64,000 bases of DNA from contig CAZIDZ010000010.1 of NCBI GenBank assembly GCA_964538455.1, positions 12,239-76,238 of the forward strand, read 5' to 3'. The DNA comes from an uncultured bacterium. Its GTDB lineage: Bacteria > Electryoneota > Electryoneia > Electryoneales > Electryoneaceae. The notes under the pieces were generated by a model, which saw only the letters and a program-made list of their open reading frames with translations, had not been told where the DNA came from and searched no databases. The translations under genes were made by a program, and so were the position numbers. Shown piece after piece: positions 5,210 through 64,000 of this stretch (positions within the stretch are counted from its first letter, which is position 1; each line of letters starts with the position of its first letter).

Positions 5210-6213
5210 ATCACACTCCCGCCCGCATCCTGATCGCTGACGACGACCCGGCGACCCTGGACCTGCTCAACGAGATGATCAAGAATCTGGGGTACCAGCC
5301 GCAACTCGCCTCCAACGGTGAAGAGGCGCTGGAACTGCTGCGCGAGAGCCCTCCGGACCTGGTGCTCTCCGACGTAATGATGCCCCGGATGGACGGATTC
5401 GACCTCTGCAAGAAGATCAAGTCGGAACGTAACACACGGCTGATTCCGGTTGTACTGCTCACCGGGCTGGGCAGCACTGAAGACCGCGTGATGGGCATCG
5501 AAGCGGGCGCAGACGATTTTATCAGCAAGCCCTTTCATCTATCCGAACTTTCCGCCCGTGTCCATTCGCTGCTGAAACTGAAACAGTTCACCGACGACCT
5601 CGAACACGCCGAAGAGGTGATTTTCTCGCTCGCACTCGCGGTGGAGGCCAAAGACCCCTATACGCAGGGTCACTGCGCGCGCCTCTCTCATTACTCGGTC
5701 GTTCTCGGGCGGCGACTCGGATACGGGGAGGACGAGCTGCAATCGTTTCGCAGAGGCGGCATCCTTCACGACATCGGAAAAATCGGCATCCCGGAGACGA
5801 TCCTGCTGAAGCCGGGGCCTCTGTCCACCGAAGAGACGACCGTGATGCGCGCCCATCCGCTAAAGGGCGAAGAAATCTGCAAGCCGCTGCGGAGCCTGCA
5901 CAAAGCCCTCCCGATCATTCGCAATCACCATGAGCACTGTGATGGAAACGGATATCCGGACGGCCTCACGGGAGAACAAATCCCGATCGGAGCAAGAATC
6001 ATTGCGGCGGTCGATTACTTCGACGCGCTGGTCACCGATCGGCCGTATCGGCAGGCATTGTCCATCGACGAAGCCTTGAAGATGCTGCACGAGGCCGTAA
6101 ACTCCGGACACCTCGATCCACAGGTCGTACGGGAACTCGTCGTGATGATCAGCACGATCGGCGACTCCTGGGTGTCCCGCGTTAAAAACTCGATCCACTC
6201 GTTCCATGCCTGA
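5206..6213 (+). CDS. response regulator with HD-GYP phosphodiesterase output domain (RpfG-like)
   Basis: REC domain (ILIADDDP...LVLSDVMMP...ISKPF) followed by HD-GYP motifs (HDIGKIGIP, HHEHCDGNGYPDGL). The ATG overlaps the selD stop (ATGA). Confidence 0.85.
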   Translation: MNHTPARILIADDDPATLDLLNEMIKNLGYQPQLASNGEEALELLRESPPDLVLSDVMMPRMDGFDLCKKIKSERNTRLIPVVLLTGLGSTEDRVMGIEAGADDFISKPFHLSELSARVHSLLKLKQFTDDLEHAEEVIFSLALAVEAKDPYTQGHCARLSHYSVVLGRRLGYGEDELQSFRRGGILHDIGKIGIPETILLKPGPLSTEETTVMRAHPLKGEEICKPLRSLHKALPIIRNHHEHCDGNGYPDGLTGEQIPIGARIIAAVDYFDALVTDRPYRQALSIDEALKMLHEAVNSGHLDPQVVRELVVMISTIGDSWVSRVKNSIHSFHA

Positions 6214-19206: not shown

Positions 19207-20034
19207 TTATTTCTTCTTCCCTTTGGTACCGGATTTCGAAGCGTCCGCCTTGGGCTTCGTTGACTTCTTTGCAGCGGAACCGGTCTTCGGCTTGGCGGAT
19301 TTCGGGGCGGCTTTTGGCTTGGCCGCTTTCTCCTTGGCGGGAGCCTCCGCCTTGGCCTTTTTCTCCGTCTTCTTCCCGGCGGAGGGCTTGGCAGCCTTGC
19401 CGGCTTTTTCGTCCTTCTTCGCGGCGGCTTTCTTCGCAGCGGGCTTCTTCGGGGCAGGTTTCTTCTTCGTGGCAGCCTTTTTCGGAGCGGCTTTCTTTGG
19501 CTTCTCCCCGGCCTTCTTCTCCGGCTTCGGCTCCGCAGGCTCTGCTACGGCTGGCTCCGTCCCGGCTGCTTCGGCGGCTTCTTCCTCTTCCGCGGCCTCA
19601 GCGGCCTTCTCCTCGGCCTGCTTCGGCTTGGCGGTCTTCTTCGCGGCGGGCTTGCGCTTCTTCTTGGTCTCATCCGCGGCAAAGCCGACCAGCTCGAGGA
19701 TCGCCATTTCGGCGCCGTCGCCGTGACGGTTGTCGAGCTTGACAATCCGCGTGTAGCCGCCGTTGCGGTCACGGAACTTCGGGCCGATTTTCTCGAAGAG
19801 TTCCTTAACGGTATCCCGGCTGCGCAGCTTCGAAAGCACGTGGCGGCGCGCGGCAACGTCACCCCTGCGCGCAAAGGTGATGATCCGCTCGGCGAAACGG
19901 CGTGCGGCGCGCGCCTTGGGCAGCGTTGTGATAATCTTCTTGTGGGTGACCAGCGCTGTGGTCAGGTTCGCCAGCAACGCCTTGCGGTGTGCCGGCGTGC
20001 GGTTAAGCCCCACATTGTTTTTGCGGTGACGCAC
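19207..20034 (-). CDS. rplQ: 50S ribosomal protein L17 with about 150-aa Lys/Ala/Pro-rich C-terminal extension
   Basis: N-terminal 120 aa are canonical L17 (MRHRKNNVGLNRTPAHRKALLANL...GYTRIVKL). The C-terminal tail has histone-H1-like KPAAKK/AAKK repeats. Confidence 0.85.
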   Translation of the reverse strand: MRHRKNNVGLNRTPAHRKALLANLTTALVTHKKIITTLPKARAARRFAERIITFARRGDVAARRHVLSKLRSRDTVKELFEKIGPKFRDRNGGYTRIVKLDNRHGDGAEMAILELVGFAADETKKKRKPAAKKTAKPKQAEEKAAEAAEEEEAAEAAGTEPAVAEPAEPKPEKKAGEKPKKAAPKKAATKKKPAPKKPAAKKAAAKKDEKAGKAAKPSAGKKTEKKAKAEAPAKEKAAKPKAAPKSAKPKTGSAAKKSTKPKADASKSGTKGKKK

Positions 20035-24609: not shown

Positions 24610-25935
24610 CTACATCCTCCGGCGGCCCTTCAGCCGTCCCGATTTCATCAGCCCGTCATAATGCCGCATCAGCAAGTGGCTGTCTATCTGCTGGAGCGTG
24701 TCGAGCGCGACGCCGACGACGATCAGCAGCGATGTTCCGCCGTACAAGCTGTACAGGTTCGCGCCGATATTGGTAAACTTTCCGAGCAGCGTCGGGAAGA
24801 TCGCGATCAGCGCCAGGAAGATCGACCCCGGCAGGGTGATCTTCGTCAAAATGTTGTCAAGAAACTCGGCCGTTTTCTTACCCGGCTTCACACCCGGGAT
24901 CAGCCCGCCATACTTCTTCAGGTTGTTCGACACGTCCACCGGGTTGAACGCGATGGCCGTGTAGAAATACGTGAAGAAGATGATCAACAGCGAATAGAAG
25001 AACATGTAAATATAGCTGTTATAGCGAAATGCGCTGTTCAGCCAGTCCTGAAACCCGCCCGCGGGGAGGAATGTCGACACCGTCTGCGGCAGAAACATAA
25101 TCGTCTGCGCAAAGATGATCGGCATCACACCCGCCGTGTTCACACGAAGCGGAATGTGCGTCGACTGCCCGCCGTACATTTTCCGGCCGACGACACGTTT
25201 GGTGTACGTCACCGGAATTTTTCTCTGTCCCTGGGTCAGGGCCACCACCGCGGCCGTGGTCAGGAACAGGATCGCAACCAGGGCGAGCTCCATGAACATG
25301 GACCGCACACCCTGCTGCATCAGCTGAAACTCGTCGAGAAACGCGTAGGGGAAACGGTCGATGATCCCGATGAAAATGATCAAGCTGATCCCGTTCCCGA
25401 TGCCGCGCTCATCAATCTGCTCGCCGAGCCACATGATGAAGATCGTCCCCGCCGTCAGGGTGATCATCACCAGGAAATAAAACCCAAGCCCCGGGTTCGG
25501 CACCACGCGGGCCGAACCGATCTGAATCCCGGACAGGAACGCCGTGACGCCGATAGACTGGAGCGCGGCGATGCCCACTGTCCCATACCGCGTCAACTGC
25601 GTGATCTTCTTTCGCCCCTCTTCCCCCTGCTCCTGCAAGCGGTGGAAATAGGGCACCACCGACGCGAGCAGCTGAATGATGATCGACGCGGAGATGTAGG
25701 GCATGATGCCCTCCGCGAAGATCGTCGCGCGGGAGAGGTTTCCTCCAGCGAACAGGTCATAGAGGCCGAACAGTGTGTTCGCCCGCTGCTGGAAGAACTG
25801 TCCGAGCACGCTCGCGTCGATCCCGGGTACGGGGATATGCCCCCCGAGCCGGTAGATCACGAAGATGCCAAGCGTGAAAATGATCCGCTTACGCAGCTCC
25901 GGGATTTTGAAGATATTGCGAAGCTTTTCAAGCAT
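24610..25935 (-). CDS. secY: preprotein translocase subunit SecY
   Basis: 10-TM SecY. Confidence 0.95.
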   Translation of the reverse strand: MLEKLRNIFKIPELRKRIIFTLGIFVIYRLGGHIPVPGIDASVLGQFFQQRANTLFGLYDLFAGGNLSRATIFAEGIMPYISASIIIQLLASVVPYFHRLQEQGEEGRKKITQLTRYGTVGIAALQSIGVTAFLSGIQIGSARVVPNPGLGFYFLVMITLTAGTIFIMWLGEQIDERGIGNGISLIIFIGIIDRFPYAFLDEFQLMQQGVRSMFMELALVAILFLTTAAVVALTQGQRKIPVTYTKRVVGRKMYGGQSTHIPLRVNTAGVMPIIFAQTIMFLPQTVSTFLPAGGFQDWLNSAFRYNSYIYMFFYSLLIIFFTYFYTAIAFNPVDVSNNLKKYGGLIPGVKPGKKTAEFLDNILTKITLPGSIFLALIAIFPTLLGKFTNIGANLYSLYGGTSLLIVVGVALDTLQQIDSHLLMRHYDGLMKSGRLKGRRRM

Positions 25936-51854: not shown

Positions 51855-51927
51855 CAGGACACGAGGGACTCGAACCCCCAACCCCCGGTTTTGGAGACCG
51901 GTGCTCTACCAATTGAGCTAGTGTCCT
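51855..51927 (-). tRNA. tRNA-Trp (anticodon CCA)
   Basis: AGGACACTAGCTCAATTGGTAGAGCACCGGTCTCCAAAACCGGGGGTTGGGGGTTCGAGTCCCTCGTGTCCTG; near-identical to E. coli tRNA-Trp. Confidence 0.9.
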
Positions 51928-52034
51928 GCGGCTCCCGTTGCCGGAAGCCCGCCCGCGTTTCCGCGGGCAAAGCTCAAATCCGCCCGTCTCCCTGCGGTGA
52001 CACTTAAAGAACGGAAGTCCCCTTTCCGCATTTG

Positions 52035-52202
52035 TCAGCGGGTCTCCCGGTGCGTTGTGTGACGGCCGCAAGACGGGCAGAATTTTTTGACTTCAAGACG
52101 CTCTGGGTGGATTCGCCGGTTTTTCGAGACGGTGTAGTTTCTGCTGCGACACTCGACGCACGCCAGCACCACCTTGTCACGCTTACCCGCTCCGGCCGCC
52201 AT
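52035..52202 (-). CDS. rpmG: 50S ribosomal protein L33 (55 aa; not in track)
   Basis: Minus-strand translation gives [55 protein letters not shown]. Confidence 0.85.
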
Positions 52203-52306
52203 CGCTCTTCATCCGTGATGCGGTTTCCACTCCCCCCGGCAGTACGCCGTACGGGGAGCCAATCCTCTGCGCCGAAGCTCCGGCCCCAGGAGAACGTCTT
52301 CGCCGC

Positions 52307-53497
<1,191 letters not shown>

Positions 53498-53563
53498 GAA
53501 CCAAGCCTCCTAGGTGGACCGGAGCCAGGCTCCGGCGTTCCTCGTTGTTCGCGTTTCTCCCTG

Positions 53564-53636
<73 letters not shown>

Positions 53637-53871
53637 GAACCTGACGTTCGACGCTGTGCTGCCCCAAGGCTTTCTCCGCCTACCGGCGGATTCGCGAAGC
53701 GGCAAGATCTGGCATGTGACACCGTGCTATCTCAAAGCGTCACCCGCTCGCAGCGGATTCACGGGCAGCCATAACAAAGAGCGCAACTCCCGATCGAACA
53801 GCCGGGAATACAACTTTCAGTGAACTGCAACGACATCGTTCGCGGGCACTCTTTCGAATCCGCCCACGTTG

Positions 53872-53944
53872 AGCGGGAGACGGGACTCGAACCCGCTACA
53901 TCCAGCTTGGAAGGCTGGTGCTCTACCAGGTGAGCTACTCCCGC
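53872..53944 (-). tRNA. tRNA-Gly (anticodon TCC)
   Basis: GCGGGAGTAGCTCACCTGGTAGAGCACCAGCCTTCCAAGCTGGATGTAGCGGGTTCGAGTCCCGTCTCCCGCT. Confidence 0.9.
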
Positions 53945-54091
53945 AAGCCGGAAGTCCGGCGCCAAGGGCGGCCTGGAGTGCTTCGCACTCGCGCCGCGAA
54001 CACAACAGAACCTTCCAAACTCTCCGCCAAGCCTCGGCCTTTCGCCGTACTGTGCAAGCCTTGCCACGACACTCGGCTCCAGCAACTCCGC

Positions 54092-54177
54092 TGGTGGGGG
54101 GGGTAGGATTCGAACCTACGAAGGCGTCCGCCGGCAGATTTACAGTCTGCTCCCTTTGACCGCTCGGGAACCCCCCC
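54092..54177 (-). tRNA. tRNA-Tyr (anticodon GTA), long variable arm, genomically encoded CCA
   Basis: GGGGGGGTTCCCGAGCGGTCAAAGGGAGCAGACTGTAAATCTGCCGGCGGACGCCTTCGTAGGTTCGAATCCTACCCCCCCACCA. Confidence 0.9.
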
Positions 54178-54354
54178 GATCGGATCATTCGCTTGCAAAG
54201 AGCAACCCTGAAAACACACAAAATGTGACCACGTTTAGAAGACCAGGTGGCTGGCACTCCGCCTATGCTGGGGCGAAGGCCTCCCTGCTCCACGTCACGC
54301 GTCACTTCCTCCAGCCAGCGGTGGTCCGGACCCGAAGCCCGTACCCGCCAGCCG

Positions 54355-54427
54355 AGCCGGCGAAGGGACTCGAACCCTTGACCACCGGATTACAAATCCG
54401 GAGCTCTACCAACTGAGCTACACCGGC
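54355..54427 (-). tRNA. tRNA-Thr (anticodon TGT)
   Basis: GCCGGTGTAGCTCAGTTGGTAGAGCTCCGGATTTGTAATCCGGTGGTCAAGGGTTCGAGTCCCTTCGCCGGCT. Confidence 0.9.
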
Positions 54428-57519: not shown

Positions 57520-58455
57520 CTATTTGGATTGCCCGACGTTCACTGTCTCTTCTACGATAAAAGCGCCGGGGTAGCCCAATGTTGCAAGGCGGTCGAGTCG
57601 CGAATTGGCATCCATCTTCGCCGTGAAATCACCGAGACGAACCTTGTACACACCATCCACTTCGACGATATAGGCGCGCAAACCGGTGCGCGCCTCCGCC
57701 TGTTTCGCCTCCTGCTCGGCAGCGGCTTGTGTGCTCACGCTCATCACCTGGATGCGAAAACCGGGCGCGGTGACAGGCGCCGGTGCGGCGGAGCTGGTAT
57801 CCGCCTTCAGCTGTTCGGAAGAAACCGCGGAGGTGTCGCTTTTTTCACCGCCCGGCCCCACGACAACAGGCGCCTGGACGACAAACGCATCGCTATACCC
57901 CTTGTCCCTGAGAACATCGCGCAGCGAGTCGGCGCTCTCCCGTTGGATGTAGTTGCCCACGAGGAGGATGTAATGATCTTCGAGGTAGCGGAGGTGCACA
58001 GGCAATCCCGGGAGCCGCATCTTCAGCTCGGCATCGGCCGCATTGACCACCTGCTTGTCCGTGTAGGAACCCACCTGGACCTTCCACCCTTTGCCCAGCT
58101 CCGGGGGTTCCTCGCCGGGAGCCTGCGGGCCGCCGTTGGGGATGAACCCCTCTTTGTTAAGGCTGTCAGGAGGAAGCGGATAGGCCTCTTCGGGGAGCGA
58201 GAGCTCATCGGTCGGAGTCGGCTCGATGACGGTCATGCCGTCGGGACGCGCGGGCGTCTGCGAAACCGCCGTTTCCGTGGTTGCGCCGGCTTGTGCGAGT
58301 GTATCCCCCGAAGCCGCTGCGGCTGAAGTGTCGGCCGGGAGCGGAGTCGCTGTCAACACCGGAATCTTCTGCTGCGAACCGACGAAGGGACGAATGCCCG
58401 CGCATCCGGATGCGATCAGCGCGGCAATAGTGACCAACAGAGCTATGTGCTTCAT
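57520..58455 (-). CDS. lipoprotein with two SPOR (peptidoglycan-binding) domains
   Basis: Lipobox LIASGC. Two SPOR-like repeats: WKVQVGSYTDKQ... and FRIQVMSVSTQAAA...YKVRLGDF. Confidence 0.65.
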   Translation of the reverse strand: MKHIALLVTIAALIASGCAGIRPFVGSQQKIPVLTATPLPADTSAAAASGDTLAQAGATTETAVSQTPARPDGMTVIEPTPTDELSLPEEAYPLPPDSLNKEGFIPNGGPQAPGEEPPELGKGWKVQVGSYTDKQVVNAADAELKMRLPGLPVHLRYLEDHYILLVGNYIQRESADSLRDVLRDKGYSDAFVVQAPVVVGPGGEKSDTSAVSSEQLKADTSSAAPAPVTAPGFRIQVMSVSTQAAAEQEAKQAEARTGLRAYIVEVDGVYKVRLGDFTAKMDANSRLDRLATLGYPGAFIVEETVNVGQSK

Positions 58456-58710
58456 AGGATTCTCCGCTGCAACGTGACCCCACTGGCACCGTTCGGCCGC
58501 CGGGGAGTTCCGGTTTTGGACAAACCTCGCGAGCGCACTCCACGGGGCGTTCCAATATGGGGGCGGGGTGCGGATTGGTCAAGGCCGTTGATCGCTCACG
58601 GCGCCGTCCGGCACGCGCTTTGTTCAACCCTTCACAAGTCCGTATATTGGCGTCCCGACGGGACTTTCCTGCGGTGGGGAAGGCGCCGGATTACCGAGGA
58701 GGAGTTCAGC

Positions 58711-59826
58711 ATGATCGTCGGAATTCCCCGTGAACGGTTCGTGGACGAACGTCGTGTGGGACTCGCTCCGGCCGGAGTCCGTTCACTCGTGGAACTTGGA
58801 GCGACGGTGTATGTGGAGGACGCGGCGGGGGCGGCTGCCGGGTGGAGCAATGATGAATATGAGCAGGCGGGCGGAACGATCGCCCACAGTCCCGAAGAGG
58901 TGTTCGGCCGCGCAGACCTTCTGATCAAAATGCTCACCCCTGATCTCGCAGAAAGCGAGATGATGCGCGAGGACCAGGTGATCCTCTCCTTTCTGCAACT
59001 CCCGCTCGCCCGCCGGGAAATGTTCCAGAACCTCGTCGATCGAGGGATGACTGCTGTCGCCCTTGAAAACATTGAAAACGAGAACGGACATCCGGTCCGG
59101 CGGGCAATGAGCGAGATCGCCGGGCCAATCGCGGTGCATGTTGCGGCGGACTACCTCAGCGCGGACCGCGGAGGACGCGGCGTTCTGATCGGCGGGGTGC
59201 CCGGCGTCCCGCCCGCGAGCGTCGGGATTATCGGCGCTGGAGTAGTCGGCACAGCCGCCGCTGAAACGGCGCTCAACCTCGGCGCAAGCGTGATCCTCGT
59301 CGATCACCGGATCGCACCGCTGCGGTACGCTCTCTATCATTTCGGAAAACGGCTCCAAACAAGCGTGCTCAACGAAACCAACGTTGAGAAACTCTGCCGC
59401 TTCGTTGACGTCCTGATCACCGCCGTACTGGTCGAAGACTATCCGACGCCCCACGTGGTCACCCGGGAACATGTCAAGATGATGAAACCGCGCAGCGTGA
59501 TCGTGGACGTCGCCATCGACCAGGGCGGAACGGTCGAGACCAGCCGCCCGACTACCCTCTCCAGTCCCACGTATGTGGAGGAAAACATCATCCACTACTG
59601 CGTCCCGAACATGGCGGCCAAGGTTCCGCGCACCGCGACACGGGCGTTCATGAACCAGGTGCTGCCGTTCGCGCGGAGAATCGTCAGGGGCGGCATCAAA
59701 CACGCCCTGCTCGAACACCCCTACCTGATCACCGGGCTCAACCTCTACGAGGGACATGTGACTCGTGAGGCAGTCGGCAAGGCGTTCGGCGTGGAGTGGG
59801 TGGAAGCCTCGGGGGTGGTGCGATGA
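58711..59826 (+). CDS. alanine dehydrogenase / PNT-alpha family NAD(P)-dependent dehydrogenase
   Basis: MIVGIPRE... (start at M89 of the track ORF); Rossmann motif GIIGAGVVGTAAA. Confidence 0.7.
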   Translation: MIVGIPRERFVDERRVGLAPAGVRSLVELGATVYVEDAAGAAAGWSNDEYEQAGGTIAHSPEEVFGRADLLIKMLTPDLAESEMMREDQVILSFLQLPLARREMFQNLVDRGMTAVALENIENENGHPVRRAMSEIAGPIAVHVAADYLSADRGGRGVLIGGVPGVPPASVGIIGAGVVGTAAAETALNLGASVILVDHRIAPLRYALYHFGKRLQTSVLNETNVEKLCRFVDVLITAVLVEDYPTPHVVTREHVKMMKPRSVIVDVAIDQGGTVETSRPTTLSSPTYVEENIIHYCVPNMAAKVPRTATRAFMNQVLPFARRIVRGGIKHALLEHPYLITGLNLYEGHVTREAVGKAFGVEWVEASGVVR

Positions 59827-61136
59827 AATGGCTCGAACGGTACCAGGCGAAACGGTGCACTCCCGCTGAAGCTGTGTCCGTCATCGAGAGCGGGAACCGT
59901 GTCGCCATCCAGCCCGGGTGCGCCGTTCCGAACCAGCTTGTCAACGCCATGGTCGCCCGCGCCGATCAGCTCAAAGATGTGGAGGTGGTGCACATCCTGA
60001 CGATGGGCGAGGCGCCTTACATGGACCCGAAATACGAGGGGATCTTCCGCCACCGTGCGCTGTTCATCGGCCACAACGCGCGCAAAGCGGTCGCCGAGGG
60101 GCGCGCCGACGCGATGGCAATCCACCTCGGCCAGGTCCCGAAACTCTTTTCTTCGGGCACGCTGCCAGTGAACGTCGCGCTGATCCACGTCAGTCCGCCC
60201 GACGAACACGGCTTCTGCTCCTTCGGCACCGACGTCGGCACGATCAAAGCGGCGGCGGACAACGCGAAACACGTCGTCGCACAGGTGAACCCGAAAATGC
60301 CACGCGCGCTCGGCGATTGCTTCATCCACGTCAACAAGCTGGACCGTGTCGTCGAGGCGGAGGAGGAACTCGTCGAGATGGCGCAGTTCGTGTTCGATCC
60401 GGACGACCCGACCACGAAGGTGCCGATGAAGATCGGCGAGAACATCGTCGAACTGATCGAGGACGGCTCGACGCTGCAGATGGGGATCGGCACCATTCCC
60501 GACGCCGTTCTCTACCACCTGCGCGAAAAACGGGACCTGGGGATTCATTCCGAGATGTTCAGCGACGGCGTCGTGGACCTTGTGGAAGAGGGGATCATCA
60601 CCAACGAGAAAAAGACGATCAATCGGAACAAGATCGTCGCCGGGTTCGTGCTCGGGACGAAAAAGACCTTCGACTTCATCGACAACAACCCGATCGCCGA
60701 GTTCCGCCCGACGGAATATGTCAACGACATCAACATCATCGCGCAGCACGACAACATGGTGGCGATCAACAGCGCGATCGAGGTGGACATCACCGGCCAG
60801 GTCTGCGCCGACAGCATCGGTCCGCGCCTGTTCAGCGGCTTCGGCGGGCAGGTGGATTTCATCCGCGGCGCGGCGATGTCCAACGGCGGCAAACCGATCA
60901 TCGCGATGCCGAGCACCGCGAAAGACGACACGATCAGCCGCATCGTCCCGCAACTGAAACCGGGAGCGGGCGTGGTCACAACCCGTGCGGATGTCCACTG
61001 GCTGGTCACCGAATACGGCGCGGTGAACCTGTACGGCAAGAGCTACCGCGAACGGGCGAAACTGCTGATCTCCATCGCCCACCCGAACTTCCGCGACGAG
61101 CTGGAGAAGTACGCGAAGGAACAGAACCTGCTTTAG
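59823..61136 (+). CDS. acetyl-CoA hydrolase/transferase family protein (4-hydroxybutyrate / succinyl-CoA:acetate CoA-transferase-like)
   Basis: MKWLERYQAKRCTPAEAVSVIESGNRVAI... family signature; ATGA overlap with the upstream stop. Confidence 0.8.
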   Translation: MKWLERYQAKRCTPAEAVSVIESGNRVAIQPGCAVPNQLVNAMVARADQLKDVEVVHILTMGEAPYMDPKYEGIFRHRALFIGHNARKAVAEGRADAMAIHLGQVPKLFSSGTLPVNVALIHVSPPDEHGFCSFGTDVGTIKAAADNAKHVVAQVNPKMPRALGDCFIHVNKLDRVVEAEEELVEMAQFVFDPDDPTTKVPMKIGENIVELIEDGSTLQMGIGTIPDAVLYHLREKRDLGIHSEMFSDGVVDLVEEGIITNEKKTINRNKIVAGFVLGTKKTFDFIDNNPIAEFRPTEYVNDINIIAQHDNMVAINSAIEVDITGQVCADSIGPRLFSGFGGQVDFIRGAAMSNGGKPIIAMPSTAKDDTISRIVPQLKPGAGVVTTRADVHWLVTEYGAVNLYGKSYRERAKLLISIAHPNFRDELEKYAKEQNLL

Positions 61137-61211
61137 ATGTCATTGCGAGCGAAGCGAAGCAATCTCGCTGTCGTCATCCTGAACGAAGTGAAGGACCTAT
61201 GTGTTAAACGT

Positions 61212-61240
61212 CCGGCAACTTGCCGGGCGTTTCTTTTGTT
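61212..61240 (+). terminator. rho-independent terminator
   Basis: CCGGCAACUUGCCGG hairpin followed by GCGUUUCUUUUGUU. It could end the CoA-transferase transcript and/or a small RNA encoded in 61137-61240. Confidence 0.55.
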
Positions 61241-61401
61241 GCATAACAAAAAGCGCCCCCGCCCGAAGGCGAGGACGACGGTTCCCCGAAGGGAGTGTCC
61301 TGCGAAGTCAAGCTTCTTATTGTGACAAGCAACGCAGGCACCGGTCAGTTTCACTACGAACTTATATTAGCAATTATCACTCGCTCATGCAAGGAGGTCG
61401 T

Positions 61402-64000
61402 ATGAAGTCAAAACAGACGATGACTCTCGGACTCGACTTGGGCACGAATTCAATCGGATGGGCTTTGATCGGAGAGGACGAATCCGGAGTCCCTAACAAG
61501 GTGATCGCCACCGGTGTACGGATTTTCCAGGAAGCTGTCGAAGCAAAAACCCGCGCTCCGAAAAACTGGGCGCGCCGGGAAGCCAGATCTGCCCGAAGAC
61601 GAAATGACCGCCGAAACCGCCGCAAACAAGCACTCAAGCTTCGTTTGCAAGCTGCGGGATTGCTCCCAAAACAGCCTGAAGCCTTTCAGGCGTCGATGCA
61701 GTCGGAAAATCCTTACCAGTTGCGCAAACAGGGATTGGAGAAAAAGCTAGAGCCCTACCAGATCGGGAGGGCGGTCTACCATCTGAACCAGCGACGCGGA
61801 TTCCTGAGCAACCGGAAGTCCTTGAAAAAGGAAGATGAAAAAGGCGCCGTCAAGGAAGGGATCAGTTCGCTGGCGAAGGAAATCGAAGATTCCGGGGCTC
61901 GCACGCTTGGCGAGTTTCTCGCGTCGCAGGCCAAGAAACGCGGGCGCTATACGGCGCGCGAAATGTTCAGCGATGAGTTTCGAGCCTTGATCACCGCTCA
62001 ACGGCGCTTTCACCCCAAATTGTTGTCGAGGGATCTCGAAGCCGACCTTTTCCGCATCATTTTTTTCCAGCGGCCGCTTAAGGTACAGAAATACCTCATC
62101 GGCCACTGCACCTTTGAAAACCATCGCCCTCGCGCCGCTATCGCCACTCTCGCCTTCCAGAAATTCCGCACGCAACAGGACTTGAACAACCTCGAAGTGC
62201 GCGATCCCGAAACACGTGAGTGGCGAAAGCTGACGATAGAAGAGCGCGCCATGCTTTACAAGACCCTGCAGGAACAGAAGGGACTCAAGTGGTCAAGCGC
62301 AAAGAAAAAAATCCACTTGCACGACAATGAACTGTTCAACCTCGAACAAGGCAAGAAAAGCGAATTGATCGGTAACCGCACAGCCTTTGACATCCAGAAA
62401 GCAATTGGAAAATCGACCTGGAAAGCGCTGTCCGAAGAACAAAGAGAACAACTTGTTACCGACCTGCTGACCATTGACCATGCGGCCGGATTCCTGCGGC
62501 GAATGCGGGAGCATTGGGGGTTCGACGAAGAAACCGCGCAGAAGCTCGCAGAGCTTGAGCTGGAAAACGGTTATGCCCGTCTTTCGATGAAAGCTCTTAA
62601 GAAAATCCTGCCGCATCTCGAACAGGGCTTGCGTTACGACGAAGCCTGCAAAGCCGCAGGCTACCACCACGCCCTGCACACCGCCTACGACAGCCCCGGC
62701 CGTCAGGTGCTCTCGGAGCCACCCAACCTGCGCAACCCGGTCGTTCAAAAAGCGCTGTGGGAAGTGCGCAAGGTGGTCAACAACCTGATCCGCGAATACG
62801 GCAAACCCGATGTGATCCGCATCGAGATGGCCCGCGAGATGAAAATGTCGCGGAAGCAGAAGCAAGAATACCAGGACAAGACAAAGAAGCTCGAGAACAA
62901 GCGCAAGCAGACTATTGAAATCCTTCAAAAGGAGTTCGGCATCCAGCAGCCCAGCCGCGCCGACATCGAGAAATTCCATCTCTGGGAGGAGTGCAACGAG
63001 ACCTGCCCCTACACAGGCCAGCCGATCTCGCGCCAGATGCTGTTCGGAACCGGAGAGGTGGATGTCGAGCACATCATTCCCTACTCCCGCTGCCTCGACG
63101 ACTCCTATATGAACAAATCCCTCTGCATCCACAAGGAAAACCGGGCCGTGAAACGCAACCAGACCCCCTATGAAGCATACCACGGCGATCCGGAAAAATT
63201 CGCGGCGATCCACCAGCGGCTGGTGACGATGAAATCCATGCCTCACGTGAAAAAACGCAAGTTCGACCAGAAAGATGTGAAACTCGACGAGTTCATCGAG
63301 CGGCAGCTCAACGACACACGCTACATCGCCGTAGAGGTCAAGGACTACCTGCGTCAGCTCGGATCCGACGTACAGGTGAGCAAGGGCCAGGCGACCGCGG
63401 CCTTGAGGAGGTCCTGGGATTTGAACCGCATCCTGGGAAGTGATCCCGGTGATAACGGCCCCGTCCAGAAATCACGGGCCGACCACCGTCACCACGCCGT
63501 CGACGCCGCCGTCATCGCCGTAACCACACGAGGCCTGCTCCAGTACCTCTCCCGGCAGTCGGCCACCAGTCCATCAGGAAGCGGATTGTGGAACCGCGAT
63601 TTCGACATCGTCCCGCCCTGGAAAGACTTTGCTAAAGACCTTCGGGCCAGCATCGAGAACATCGTCGTTTCCCACGCGCCACTGCGGAAACTGTCGGGTG
63701 CGCTTCACGAGGAGACGGTGTATGGCATCGCCGGTGTGGATGAGAAAAGTGGCAAGCTGATGGTTGTCTATCGCGTGCGACTGGACAACCCGATCACAGC
63801 GCCTCAGATCGAGAAAATCCGCGACGACGGCGTGAAAACTATCGTCAAAGAACGGATCACCCAGGTCGCCGCTAATCCGGATAAACCAACTCCCGCGGAG
63901 TTGAAACAGGCCTTCGCCACACCGCTCTACCACAAGGACGGCAAAACTCCCATCGAGACCGTCCGCATCGAACAGCAGGTCTCTGCTGATTCCTTTTTCG
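61402..64000 (+). CDS. cas9: CRISPR-associated endonuclease Cas9, type II (compact, II-C-like), 3'-truncated by the window edge
   Basis: RBS AAGGAGG lies 4 nt upstream of the ATG. Continuous ORF of at least 866 codons to the window end, translated by hand. RuvC-I: MTLGLDLGTNSIGWALI. Arg-rich bridge helix: RSARRRNDRRNRRKQALKLR. RuvC-II: PDVIRIEMAREM. HNH: EVDVEHIIPYSRCLDDSYMNKSLCIHKENRAVKRNQTPYEAY. RuvC-III: ADHRHHAVDAAVIAV. Confidence 0.9.
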   Translation, partial: MKSKQTMTLGLDLGTNSIGWALIGEDESGVPNKVIATGVRIFQEAVEAKTRAPKNWARREARSARRRNDRRNRRKQALKLRLQAAGLLPKQPEAFQASMQSENPYQLRKQGLEKKLEPYQIGRAVYHLNQRRGFLSNRKSLKKEDEKGAVKEGISSLAKEIEDSGARTLGEFLASQAKKRGRYTAREMFSDEFRALITAQRRFHPKLLSRDLEADLFRIIFFQRPLKVQKYLIGHCTFENHRPRAAIATLAFQKFRTQQDLNNLEVRDPETREWRKLTIEERAMLYKTLQEQKGLKWSSAKKKIHLHDNELFNLEQGKKSELIGNRTAFDIQKAIGKSTWKALSEEQREQLVTDLLTIDHAAGFLRRMREHWGFDEETAQKLAELELENGYARLSMKALKKILPHLEQGLRYDEACKAAGYHHALHTAYDSPGRQVLSEPPNLRNPVVQKALWEVRKVVNNLIREYGKPDVIRIEMAREMKMSRKQKQEYQDKTKKLENKRKQTIEILQKEFGIQQPSRADIEKFHLWEECNETCPYTGQPISRQMLFGTGEVDVEHIIPYSRCLDDSYMNKSLCIHKENRAVKRNQTPYEAYHGDPEKFAAIHQRLVTMKSMPHVKKRKFDQKDVKLDEFIERQLNDTRYIAVEVKDYLRQLGSDVQVSKGQATAALRRSWDLNRILGSDPGDNGPVQKSRADHRHHAVDAAVIAVTTRGLLQYLSRQSATSPSGSGLWNRDFDIVPPWKDFAKDLRASIENIVVSHAPLRKLSGALHEETVYGIAGVDEKSGKLMVVYRVRLDNPITAPQIEKIRDDGVKTIVKERITQVAANPDKPTPAELKQAFATPLYHKDGKTPIETVRIEQQVSADSFF

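What the first reader, a model, noticed from the sequence alone, without database searches (positions are those of the whole stretch)
61402..64000. Unlisted, apparently intact type II Cas9 at the window edge, embedded in housekeeping context
The supplied ORF track has no + strand ORF here because the frame never hits a stop before position 64000. Only antisense artefacts (62293..63246 and 63574..63933, minus strand) are listed. Hand translation from ATG 61402 gives every Cas9 hallmark in canonical order: RuvC-I LGLDLGTNSIGWA with the catalytic Asp, the Arg-rich bridge helix, RuvC-II IEMARE, an HNH motif with the His/Asn pair, and RuvC-III HHAVDAA. This predicts a nuclease-active, compact (II-C-like) Cas9. 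It lies immediately downstream of a CoA-transferase gene, with no cas1/cas2/csn2 upstream. The adaptation module, the array and the PAM-interacting domain must therefore lie beyond the window or be absent. A stand-alone or minimal cas9 locus next to core metabolism in a high-GC, apparently uncultivated lineage is the best candidate here for a novel effector variant.
Basis: partly seen in the sequence, partly recalled or inferred. Interest (0 to 1): 0.75.

Follow-up and report, generated by a model that had tools for sequence, protein, structure and literature searches.

The report
Ordinary type II-C Cas9 with tracrRNA
The window ends inside a genuine, apparently active Cas9 gene of the common type II-C kind, with its guide-partner RNA (tracrRNA) encoded just upstream; relatives carry the full CRISPR locus at the same chromosomal spot, so this is a new ortholog rather than a new kind of system.

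Summary
From ATG 61402 the + frame stays open for 866 codons to the window edge. It matches the Cas9 equivalog model TIGR01865 (E 7.5e-211). A database protein that is 100% identical over those 866 residues is 1007 aa long and matches the model end to end. All catalytic residues are present: D12, E475, H698 and D701 (RuvC); H557 and N580 (HNH). The closest solved structures are type II-C Cas9s.

It has a 37-nt anti-repeat, three hairpins and a terminator.

The "stand-alone, novel effector" reading is not supported. The 86-87% and 58% identical orthologs sit in the same thioredoxin-DsbD-SPOR-AlaDH-CoA-transferase neighbourhood. There cas9 is followed by cas1, cas2 and a 36-nt-repeat array that pairs with this anti-repeat. 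Three more distant relatives have the same layout. More than 5,500 homologs exist, and about 1000 aa is the usual size for this clade.

One point is open. No Cas1 or Cas2 is on record for the 76,792-nt source contig, so loss of the adaptation module in this strain cannot be excluded (about 30%). No spacer target was found, so the PAM is unknown.

Verdict: new member of a known kind, low interest.

The parts
61402..64000 (+). cas9 coding sequence, residues 1-866 of 1007. It is cut by the window edge. The predicted stop is at about 64423-64425, outside the window.
   Evidence: Open frame. TIGR01865 703 bits, Pfam RuvC_III/HNH_4/Cas9_a. The 100% identical 1007-aa record P0001 matches TIGR01865 at residues 8-1000 against model positions 2-1069 of 1070.
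61391..61397 (+). Shine-Dalgarno sequence AAGGAGG, 4 nt before the cas9 ATG
   Evidence: Read directly from the sequence. Conserved in L001, L006, L008 and L009.
61248..61355 (-). Predicted tracrRNA gene (about 108 nt, transcribed away from cas9), consisting of an anti-repeat, three hairpins and a terminator
   Evidence: Nearly invariant across orthologs whose flanks diverge. Its position 47-69 nt upstream of cas9 on the minus strand is conserved in 8 loci, and each anti-repeat co-varies with its own repeat. Tail consensus structure. Tail fold -29.5 kcal/mol, z only -1.6. No Rfam family matches.
61319..61355 (-). Anti-repeat, AGTGAAACTGACCGGTGCCTGCGTTGCTTGTCACAAT
   Evidence: The 22-nt core is unique in the window, with 0 matches expected by chance. 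It pairs with the crRNA-sense repeat of the 86-87% ortholog (GTTGTGACTTGCGGGCAGGCACCGGTCAGTTTCACT) at -62.1 kcal/mol: 22 perfect pairs, one bulge, then 12 more pairs. The same-sense control gives -18.3.
61254..61277 (-). Intrinsic terminator hairpin of the tracrRNA (10-bp stem, then CTTTTTGTT)
   Evidence: Terminator scan. The stem sequence differs among the window, L001 and L008 but pairing is kept.
61364..61372 (-). Possible extended -10 promoter element, TGCTAATAT, 8 nt upstream of the anti-repeat (inferred only)
   Evidence: TGnTAATAT is conserved in all five close sequences. The generic sigma-70 scan found no two-hexamer promoter here, so this is an inference, not a tool hit.
61206..61240 (+). 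Intrinsic terminator of the upstream CoA-transferase gene. It marks the left limit of the CRISPR-Cas locus.
   Evidence: Terminator scan: 12-bp stem followed by CTTTTGTT.

Best explanation
The region holds the 5' 86% of a type II-C cas9 gene together with its tracrRNA gene. These form the effector module of an Nme/Cje-style CRISPR-Cas9 locus inserted downstream of a CoA-transferase gene.

Proposed mechanism (inferred from family knowledge unless marked as shown):
- The tracrRNA is transcribed on the minus strand, starting about 47 nt upstream of the cas9 ATG.
- Its 37-nt anti-repeat pairs with the 36-nt repeat of crRNAs. (Shown in silico against the ortholog's repeat.)
- The array is transcribed antisense to the cas operon, so that crRNAs read 5'-spacer-GUUGUGACUUGC...-3'.
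- Cas9 (1007 aa) binds this duplex through its Arg-rich bridge helix and REC lobe. It recognises a still unknown PAM with its C-terminal domain and unwinds the target.
- It cuts the target strand with HNH (H557, N580) and the other strand with RuvC (D12, E475, H698, D701). (The residues are shown to be present; activity is inferred.)

In the two closest relatives, at the same chromosomal site, cas9 is followed by cas1 (overlapping by 8 nt), cas2, a bidirectional terminator and an array of 36-nt repeats with 30-nt spacers. The same most probably follows here beyond position 64000, but this is not shown.
For: Identity as Cas9:
- establish the open frame and the family matches.
- The best PDB matches are the II-C enzymes 9ar4/8uza (E about 1e-86) and 6jdq/6jdv (E about 1e-80). 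II-A enzymes score E 1e-33 to 1e-16.
- Catalytic residues map onto Nme1Cas9 D16, H588 and N611.
- The protein aligns end to end with its 1004-aa ortholog at 86% identity, without a frameshift.

tracrRNA:
- In L013 the repeat changes G>T and T>C are mirrored in its anti-repeat.

Locus architecture in relatives:
- L008/L009 carry at least 44 repeats.
- L013/L014 share the same synteny.
- L015, L016 and L017 have the same gene order.
- L010 comes from the same metagenome as the 99.8% identical L006. It carries a partial cas1 (85% identical to the L008 Cas1) and cas2 (94%).

Literature (PMC3737331):
- Anti-repeats lie mostly upstream of cas9 in type II-C.
- The degenerate-terminal-repeat rule mispredicts orientation in those species. 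Here too the degenerate repeat is at the cas-distal end.
Against: - The window stops at residue 866, and the source contig could not be retrieved.
- No Cas1 or Cas2 on the 76,792-nt contig is on record, although 4 of 4 other window proteins and Cas9 itself are.
- The window's own repeat is therefore unseen, and pairing was tested against the ortholog's repeat.
- No promoter passed the generic scan.
- The tracr tail's fold energy is not exceptional (z -1.6).
- No Rfam family matches.
- No protospacer was found, so the PAM and targets are unknown.
- There are no expression data.
Confidence: 0.9

Rival explanations
1. Minimal or stand-alone locus. In this particular strain cas9 and the tracrRNA remain, but cas1 and cas2 (and perhaps the array) have been lost or disrupted. 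Cas9 would then work only with pre-existing spacers, or have no guide at all.
For: Searches with the ortholog's Cas1, with its N-terminal 90 aa and with Cas2 returned no protein from a 76,792-nt NCBI contig. The Cas2 90% cluster has no NCBI member. The control shows that the database does hold this contig's proteins: 4 of 4 tested, plus Cas9. Up to 12.8 kb of contig may lie beyond the window.
Against: All seven relatives examined have cas1-cas2 directly after cas9. A cas1-cas2 fragment at the expected divergence co-occurs with a 99.8% identical copy of the window's cas9 5' end in one metagenome. Cut genes appear not to be stored for un-annotated assemblies: L010's cut Cas1 is also missing. A contig that ends inside cas1 would therefore give the same negative result. 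Assemblies break repeatedly in this locus (L001, L006, L010, L011). Cas9 and the tracrRNA are fully intact, which argues for a system still in use.
Confidence: 0.3
2. It is not a Cas9 but an IscB-like or other HNH-RuvC nuclease, or it is a catalytically dead Cas9 relic.
For: None beyond the shared RuvC and HNH domains.
Against: It has a REC lobe (Cas9_a, E 4e-12) and an end-to-end equivalog match at 730 bits against a cutoff of 100. Its length is 1007 aa. All catalytic residues are present. The Cas9d model scores below its cutoff, 149 against 375.
Confidence: 0.01
3. The minus-strand element upstream of cas9 is not a tracrRNA. It would be a decayed orphan CRISPR repeat or merely a terminator, and the real tracrRNA would lie elsewhere, for example next to the array.
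For: There are no expression data, no Rfam match, no promoter hit and a modest fold z-score. Orphan degenerate repeats do occur in this lineage (L008 7875-7910, L011 7349-7384).
Against: The whole 108-nt unit is nearly invariant while its flanks diverge. The same position, strand and three-hairpin tail recur in 8 loci whose Cas9 identity to this protein falls as low as 39%. Each anti-repeat tracks its own repeat. The unit ends in a scanned terminator. No other anti-repeat-like sequence was found in the relatives' loci outside the arrays, except the + strand orphan, which has the wrong sense to pair.
Confidence: 0.05

Closest known systems
Neisseria meningitidis Nme1Cas9/Nme2Cas9 type II-C system (PDB 6jdq, 6jdv; species names from my own knowledge, since the tool gives only 'Cas9')
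   Same: Same domain order. Alignment runs over residues 8-718 (E about 1e-80). D12, H557 and N580 align with D16, H588 and N611. The tracrRNA is upstream of cas9, relatives have cas9-cas1-cas2-array without csn2 or cas4, repeats are 36 nt and spacers 30 nt, and crRNAs run antisense to the cas operon (PMC3737331).
   Different: It is about 75 aa shorter (1007 against 1082). The C-terminal PAM-interacting region barely aligns (second stretch E 2.4), so the PAM is expected to differ. The 3' end of the repeat reads TTCACT rather than Nme's TACAAT -10 box, so repeat-embedded promoters are doubtful here. Some relatives do have TACAAT.
Geobacillus GeoCas9/ThermoCas9-type II-C Cas9 (PDB 8uza, 8uzb, 8jtj, 9ar4; names from my own knowledge)
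   Same: These are the best-scoring solved structures (E 2e-86 to 6e-83). They align across RuvC-I, the bridge helix, REC, RuvC-II, HNH, RuvC-III and part of the WED/PI region, up to residue 843.
   Different: The match is split into separate stretches with a poorly aligned REC segment (about 313-373). The protein is about 80 aa shorter. The host is an environmental, roughly 60% GC uncultured lineage rather than a Firmicute.
Uncharacterised environmental II-C Cas9 clade (MAG proteins named Candidatus Kuenenia, Sulfuricella, Gallionella, Planctomycetota, Deltaproteobacteria)
   Same: Identity is 49-58% over 97-100% of the query, lengths are 973-1054 aa and the Pfam architecture is the same. These loci share the gene order, the 36-nt repeats ending ...CACAAC on the cas strand, and a minus-strand tracrRNA 47-69 nt upstream of cas9.
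   Different: Apart from the 86-87% orthologs, the nearest member is only 58% identical. The repeat and anti-repeat sequences are lineage-specific.

Membership tests
Cas9 (type II CRISPR effector, TIGR01865 cas_Csn1) | Full-length match to the curated equivalog model above its cutoff | tested here: met
   Window part: 703 bits against a cutoff of 100, model positions 2-884 of 1070. Full-length P0001: 729.6 bits, model positions 2-1069 of 1070.
Cas9 (type II CRISPR effector, TIGR01865 cas_Csn1) | Split RuvC domain (motifs I, II, III) with an inserted HNH domain, and all catalytic residues present | tested here: met
   D12, E475, H698 and D701; D554, H557 and N580. They align to the catalytic positions of Nme1Cas9 and of the Geobacillus-type enzyme. 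Pfam RuvC_III and HNH_4 match.
Cas9 (type II CRISPR effector, TIGR01865 cas_Csn1) | Arg-rich bridge helix and alpha-helical REC lobe (distinguishes Cas9 from IscB) | tested here: met
   RREARSARRRNDRRNRRK at 58-75. Pfam Cas9_a at 229-405, E 4e-12.
Cas9 (type II CRISPR effector, TIGR01865 cas_Csn1) | Cognate tracrRNA with an anti-repeat complementary to the CRISPR repeat | tested here: met
   Minus strand 61355-61248. The duplex with the ortholog's repeat is -62.1 kcal/mol. The element is conserved and co-varies in 8 loci. Caveat: the window's own repeat is unseen.
Cas9 (type II CRISPR effector, TIGR01865 cas_Csn1) | RNA-guided, PAM-dependent double-strand DNA cleavage | not testable with these tools
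   This needs biochemistry. Searches for protospacers found none, so no PAM could be inferred.
Subtype II-C | Locus contains cas9, cas1 and cas2 only, with no csn2 (II-A) and no cas4 (II-B) | tested here: inconclusive
   Met in all relatives: L008, L009, L013, L014, L015, L016 and L017. For the window itself there is no csn2, cas4, cas1 or cas2 upstream. The downstream part is outside the window, and no Cas1 or Cas2 is on record for the source contig.
Subtype II-C | Cas9 sequence groups with II-C enzymes rather than II-A, II-B or II-D | tested here: met
   The 14 best PDB sequences score E 1e-73 to 1e-86; I recognise the leading ones as II-C enzymes from my own knowledge. The Sa/St1/Sp-type II-A enzymes score 1e-33 to 1e-16. 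The Cas9d model scores below its cutoff. No formal phylogeny was built.
Subtype II-C | Adjacent CRISPR array | tested here: inconclusive
   There is no array in the window. Arrays are present after cas2 in all relatives whose contig reaches that far.

The most novel reading that the evidence does not exclude
In this strain the locus has been reduced to cas9 plus tracrRNA, with or without an array, and lacks cas1/cas2, while sister strains at the same chromosomal site keep the full module. That would be a recent, naturally occurring 'effector-only' type II-C locus with a fully intact nuclease. It could be used for non-adaptive functions, or it could rely on adaptation genes elsewhere in the genome.
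Probability: 0.3. Interest if true: 0.3.

Novelty: new member of a known kind. Interest (0 to 1): 0.2.

Why it matters
It adds one more intact, roughly 1000-aa type II-C Cas9 ortholog, with a confidently predicted tracrRNA and repeat (and therefore an sgRNA design), from an uncultured ~60% GC lineage. Such orthologs are of routine interest as possible compact genome-editing enzymes with a new PAM. They do not change understanding of CRISPR biology. The case also shows that a 'lone cas9 next to metabolism genes' at a window edge is an artefact of where the window was cut. In this lineage the site downstream of the CoA-transferase gene is a conserved home of a complete locus.

Tried and rejected
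1. Retrieving the source contig failed.
- The genome contigs and metagenome-contig scans returned only relatives or short fragments.
- The look-up of encoding contigs has no record for P0001.
- For the window's CoA-transferase it returned only a Logan contig and a JGI contig.

2. I first read L011 as a strain variant lacking the CRISPR locus, because its DNA departs from the window right after the CoA-transferase stop. I rejected this. Its tail is homologous to the longer intergenic segment of L008, which precedes the tracrRNA there.

3. Testing for Cas1 and Cas2 on the source contig through the protein database gave a negative result. The positive control worked. The outcome stays ambiguous because cut genes seem not to be stored.

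4. PAM and target inference failed.
- The L008 array matched nothing in the phage and plasmid collections.
- Five spacers matched nothing in IMG/VR.
- 86 spacers gave only 15-16-nt chance matches against the window and all loci.

5. Rfam found nothing for the tracrRNA at gathering or permissive thresholds.

6. The generic promoter scan found no sigma-70 site in 61000-61600.

7. Structure prediction was not run, because the sequence evidence was already decisive.
Full report
**1. The observation**

Translating window 61402-64000 on the + strand gives 866 codons with no stop. The mechanical ORF list leaves this frame out only because ORFs that run off the source are not reported. Neither has a Pfam match, so they look like antisense artefacts of a GC-rich gene.

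A strong Shine-Dalgarno sequence (AAGGAGG, 61391-61397) lies 4 nt before the ATG.

**2. What the protein is**

The 866-aa fragment matches the NCBIfam Cas9 equivalog TIGR01865 at E 7.5e-211 (703 bits, cutoff 100). It also matches Pfam RuvC_III, HNH_4 and the Cas9 alpha-helical lobe, and the PADLOC Cas9 models.

A 1007-aa protein, P0001, is 100% identical over all 866 residues. It is on record from an NCBI contig of 76,792 nt. It aligns to TIGR01865 from model position 2 to 1069 of 1070. The gene is therefore complete in the source, with 141 residues beyond the window, and its C-terminal PAM-interacting region is present.

The best solved structures are the Geobacillus-type enzymes (9ar4, 8uza, 8uzb, 8jtj; E about 1e-83 to 1e-86) and the Neisseria enzymes (6jdq, 6jdv; E about 1e-80). 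Type II-A enzymes score 1e-33 or worse. The species names for these PDB entries are from my own knowledge.

In those alignments D12, H557 and N580 fall on Nme1Cas9 D16, H588 and N611. IEMARE (E475) and HHAVD (H698, D701) match RuvC-II and RuvC-III. The Cas9d model scores far below its cutoff.

This is an intact, presumably nuclease-active type II-C Cas9. It is not IscB and not a relic.

**3.

The 265-nt spacer between the CoA-transferase stop (61136) and cas9 contains two elements.
- A + strand terminator for the upstream gene (61206-61240).
- On the minus strand, a 108-nt unit (61355 to 61248) that ends in a 10-bp terminator hairpin plus a T-run.

The first 37 nt of this unit are AGTGAAACTGACCGGTGCCTGCGTTGCTTGTCACAAT. 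The 22-nt core is unique in the window, with no match expected by chance.

In the 86-87% ortholog locus L008, the CRISPR repeat on the cas strand is AGTGAAACTGACCGGTGCCTGCCCGCAAGTCACAAC. Its reverse complement, GUUGUGACUUGCGGGCAGGCACCGGUCAGUUUCACU, pairs with the window's anti-repeat at -62.1 kcal/mol. The duplex has 22 perfect pairs, a one-base bulge, then 12 more pairs around a 2x2 mismatch. A same-sense control gives -18.3.

The whole unit is almost invariant among the window, L001, L006, L008 and L009, while the flanking DNA diverges. The terminator stem changes sequence but keeps its pairing.

I examined eight loci whose Cas9s are 39-100% identical to this one. In every one, the same kind of unit lies on the minus strand 47-69 nt upstream of the cas9 ATG. 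Each anti-repeat tracks its own repeat. In L013, for example, ACTGACC>ACTTACC and GTCAC>GCCAC/ACCAC changes occur on both partners. The tail keeps a GAAG/CUUC stem, a CCCC/GGGG stem and a terminator.

A conserved TGnTAATAT (61372-61364, minus strand) sits 8 nt upstream of the anti-repeat and may be an extended -10 promoter. That is an inference: the generic scan found no promoter. Rfam has no matching family, and the tail's fold energy alone is unremarkable (z -1.6). The case for the tracrRNA therefore rests on comparative evidence.

The orientation implies that crRNAs are transcribed antisense to the cas operon. This was shown experimentally for N. meningitidis and C. jejuni. In those species, as here, the degenerate repeat sits at the 'wrong' end (PMC3737331).

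**4. The surroundings and the 'stand-alone' claim**

The window upstream of cas9 reads AhpC-like, thioredoxin, DsbD, SPOR protein, alanine dehydrogenase, acetyl-CoA hydrolase/transferase.

Exactly this neighbourhood precedes cas9 in L008/L009 (Cas9 86-87% identical) and in L013/L014 (58% identical). There cas9 is followed by:
- cas1, overlapping cas9 by 8 nt;
- cas2;
- a bidirectional terminator;
- an array of 36-nt repeats and 30-nt spacers, with at least 44 repeats in L008.

More distant relatives in other genomic contexts (MAGs named Kuenenia and Sulfuricella, and one unnamed metagenome contig) have the same cas9-cas1-cas2-array order. The 'housekeeping context' is thus a conserved chromosomal site of a complete type II-C locus.

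JGI metagenome 3300031257 contains L006, which is 99.8% identical to window 58391-61671. It also contains L010, a 1,076-nt contig with the 3' two-thirds of cas1 (85% identical to the L008 Cas1), cas2 (94%) and the pre-array terminator. That is the divergence expected for the window lineage.

**5. The unresolved point**

I could not read the source contig beyond position 64000.

Searches of the protein collection used the ortholog's Cas1, a chimera of its N-terminal 90 residues plus Cas2, and the Cas2 cluster membership. None found a Cas1 or Cas2 from a 76,792-nt NCBI contig. A control showed that four of four other window proteins, as well as Cas9, are recorded with that contig.

Two explanations remain.
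- The contig ends inside cas1. Cut genes appear not to be stored: L010's cut Cas1 is missing as well. Assemblies also break repeatedly in this locus (L001 at Cas9 residue 830, L006 at residue 90, L010 inside cas1, L011 before the tracrRNA).
- This strain lacks intact cas1 and cas2.

I put the second explanation at about 30%. Even if true, it would be a reduced version of a known system.

**6. Mechanism**

Shown here:
- an intact Cas9 with all catalytic residues;
- a conserved, terminator-ended anti-repeat RNA gene;
- in-silico pairing with the ortholog's repeat;
- a complete adaptation module and array in syntenic relatives.

Inferred from established knowledge of type II-C systems:
- The tracrRNA pairs with crRNA repeats and Cas9 binds the duplex.
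- A PAM 3' of the protospacer is read by the C-terminal domain.
- HNH cuts the target strand and RuvC cuts the non-target strand.

How crRNAs are made is uncertain. The relatives' repeats end in -10-like boxes: TGGTACAAT in L015, TACAAT in L016, TATATT in L017 and TACACT in L002. This resembles the repeat-embedded promoters of Neisseria. The window lineage has TTCACT, which is a poor -10.

The PAM and the targets are unknown. The L008 array matched nothing in the phage or plasmid collections, five spacers matched nothing in IMG/VR, and no spacer matches the window.

**7. Comparison, novelty and verdict**

Membership in Cas9 is met on every sequence-level criterion. Subtype II-C is met by sequence affinity and by the relatives' locus composition. 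It is formally inconclusive for this contig's downstream part.

The protein has more than 5,500 homologs at E<=1e-50. The 120 best are 49-58% identical (apart from two 87% orthologs) and 973-1054 aa long, leaving aside three shorter, apparently truncated entries of 802-921 aa. At 1007 aa it is neither unusually compact nor an outlier.

It is a new member of a known kind. It is useful at most as one more candidate editing enzyme with a ready sgRNA design. Interest is 0.2.

Noticed in passing
L008 7875-7910, L009 7939-7974, L011 7349-7384 (absent from the window and L001): A solitary degenerate CRISPR repeat (5-6 mismatches, same strand sense as the array) lies between the CoA-transferase gene and the tracrRNA. 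It is preceded by a conserved terminator-like hairpin and followed by a partly conserved 'spacer' (xACAGCCTGCATCA). These loci carry a roughly 486-nt intergenic segment where the window has 116 nt (61128-61243). It could be an array remnant or an orphan crRNA-like regulator. No target for its spacer was found in the loci or the window.
   Followed up: partly
window 61138-61200; L013 about 5700-5800 (two copies); L008 12478-12500: A palindromic, MITE-like element (GTCATTGCGAGCGAAGCGAAGCAATCTC...GTCATCCTGAACGAAGTGAAGGACC) sits exactly where the window/L001 and L008/L011 intergenic forms diverge. Related copies flank the CRISPR loci of relatives. There is only one copy in the 64-kb window.
   Followed up: partly
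L008 and L013 compared with the window (cas9, cas1, cas2): At the same syntenic site, Cas9 has diverged much faster than the adaptation proteins. Cas9 is 58% identical (window vs the L013 Cas9), against Cas1 84% and Cas2 88% (L008 vs L013 lineage). This is consistent with strong diversifying pressure on the effector.
   Followed up: no
source contig beyond window 64000: No Cas1 or Cas2 is recorded for the 76,792-nt contig, although Cas9 and 4 of 4 other window proteins are. Independent assemblies break inside or next to this locus (L001, L006, L010, L011), which suggests strain-level heterogeneity here.
   Followed up: partly
L015, L016, L017, L002 repeats: In crRNA sense the relatives' repeats end in -10-like boxes (TGGTACAAT, TACAAT, TATATT, TACACT). 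This is like the repeat-embedded promoters described for Neisseria and Campylobacter. The window lineage's repeat ends in TTCACT.
   Followed up: no
window 51855-54427 (minus strand) and 52307-53497 (minus strand): Five tRNA genes lie around an EF-Tu (tuf) gene, four on one side and one on the other. This is an ordinary tRNA-tuf arrangement.
   Followed up: no
window 19415-19497 and 24783-24824: Short tandem repeats (period 15/33, about 2-5 copies; period 21, 2 copies) reported by Tandem Repeats Finder. They probably lie inside coding sequence. Not examined.
   Followed up: no
window 60500-63000: GC falls from about 0.62-0.63 in the flanking genes to 0.54-0.55 over the first half of cas9. This is compatible with an origin by horizontal transfer, even though the site is conserved in the lineage.
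   Followed up: no
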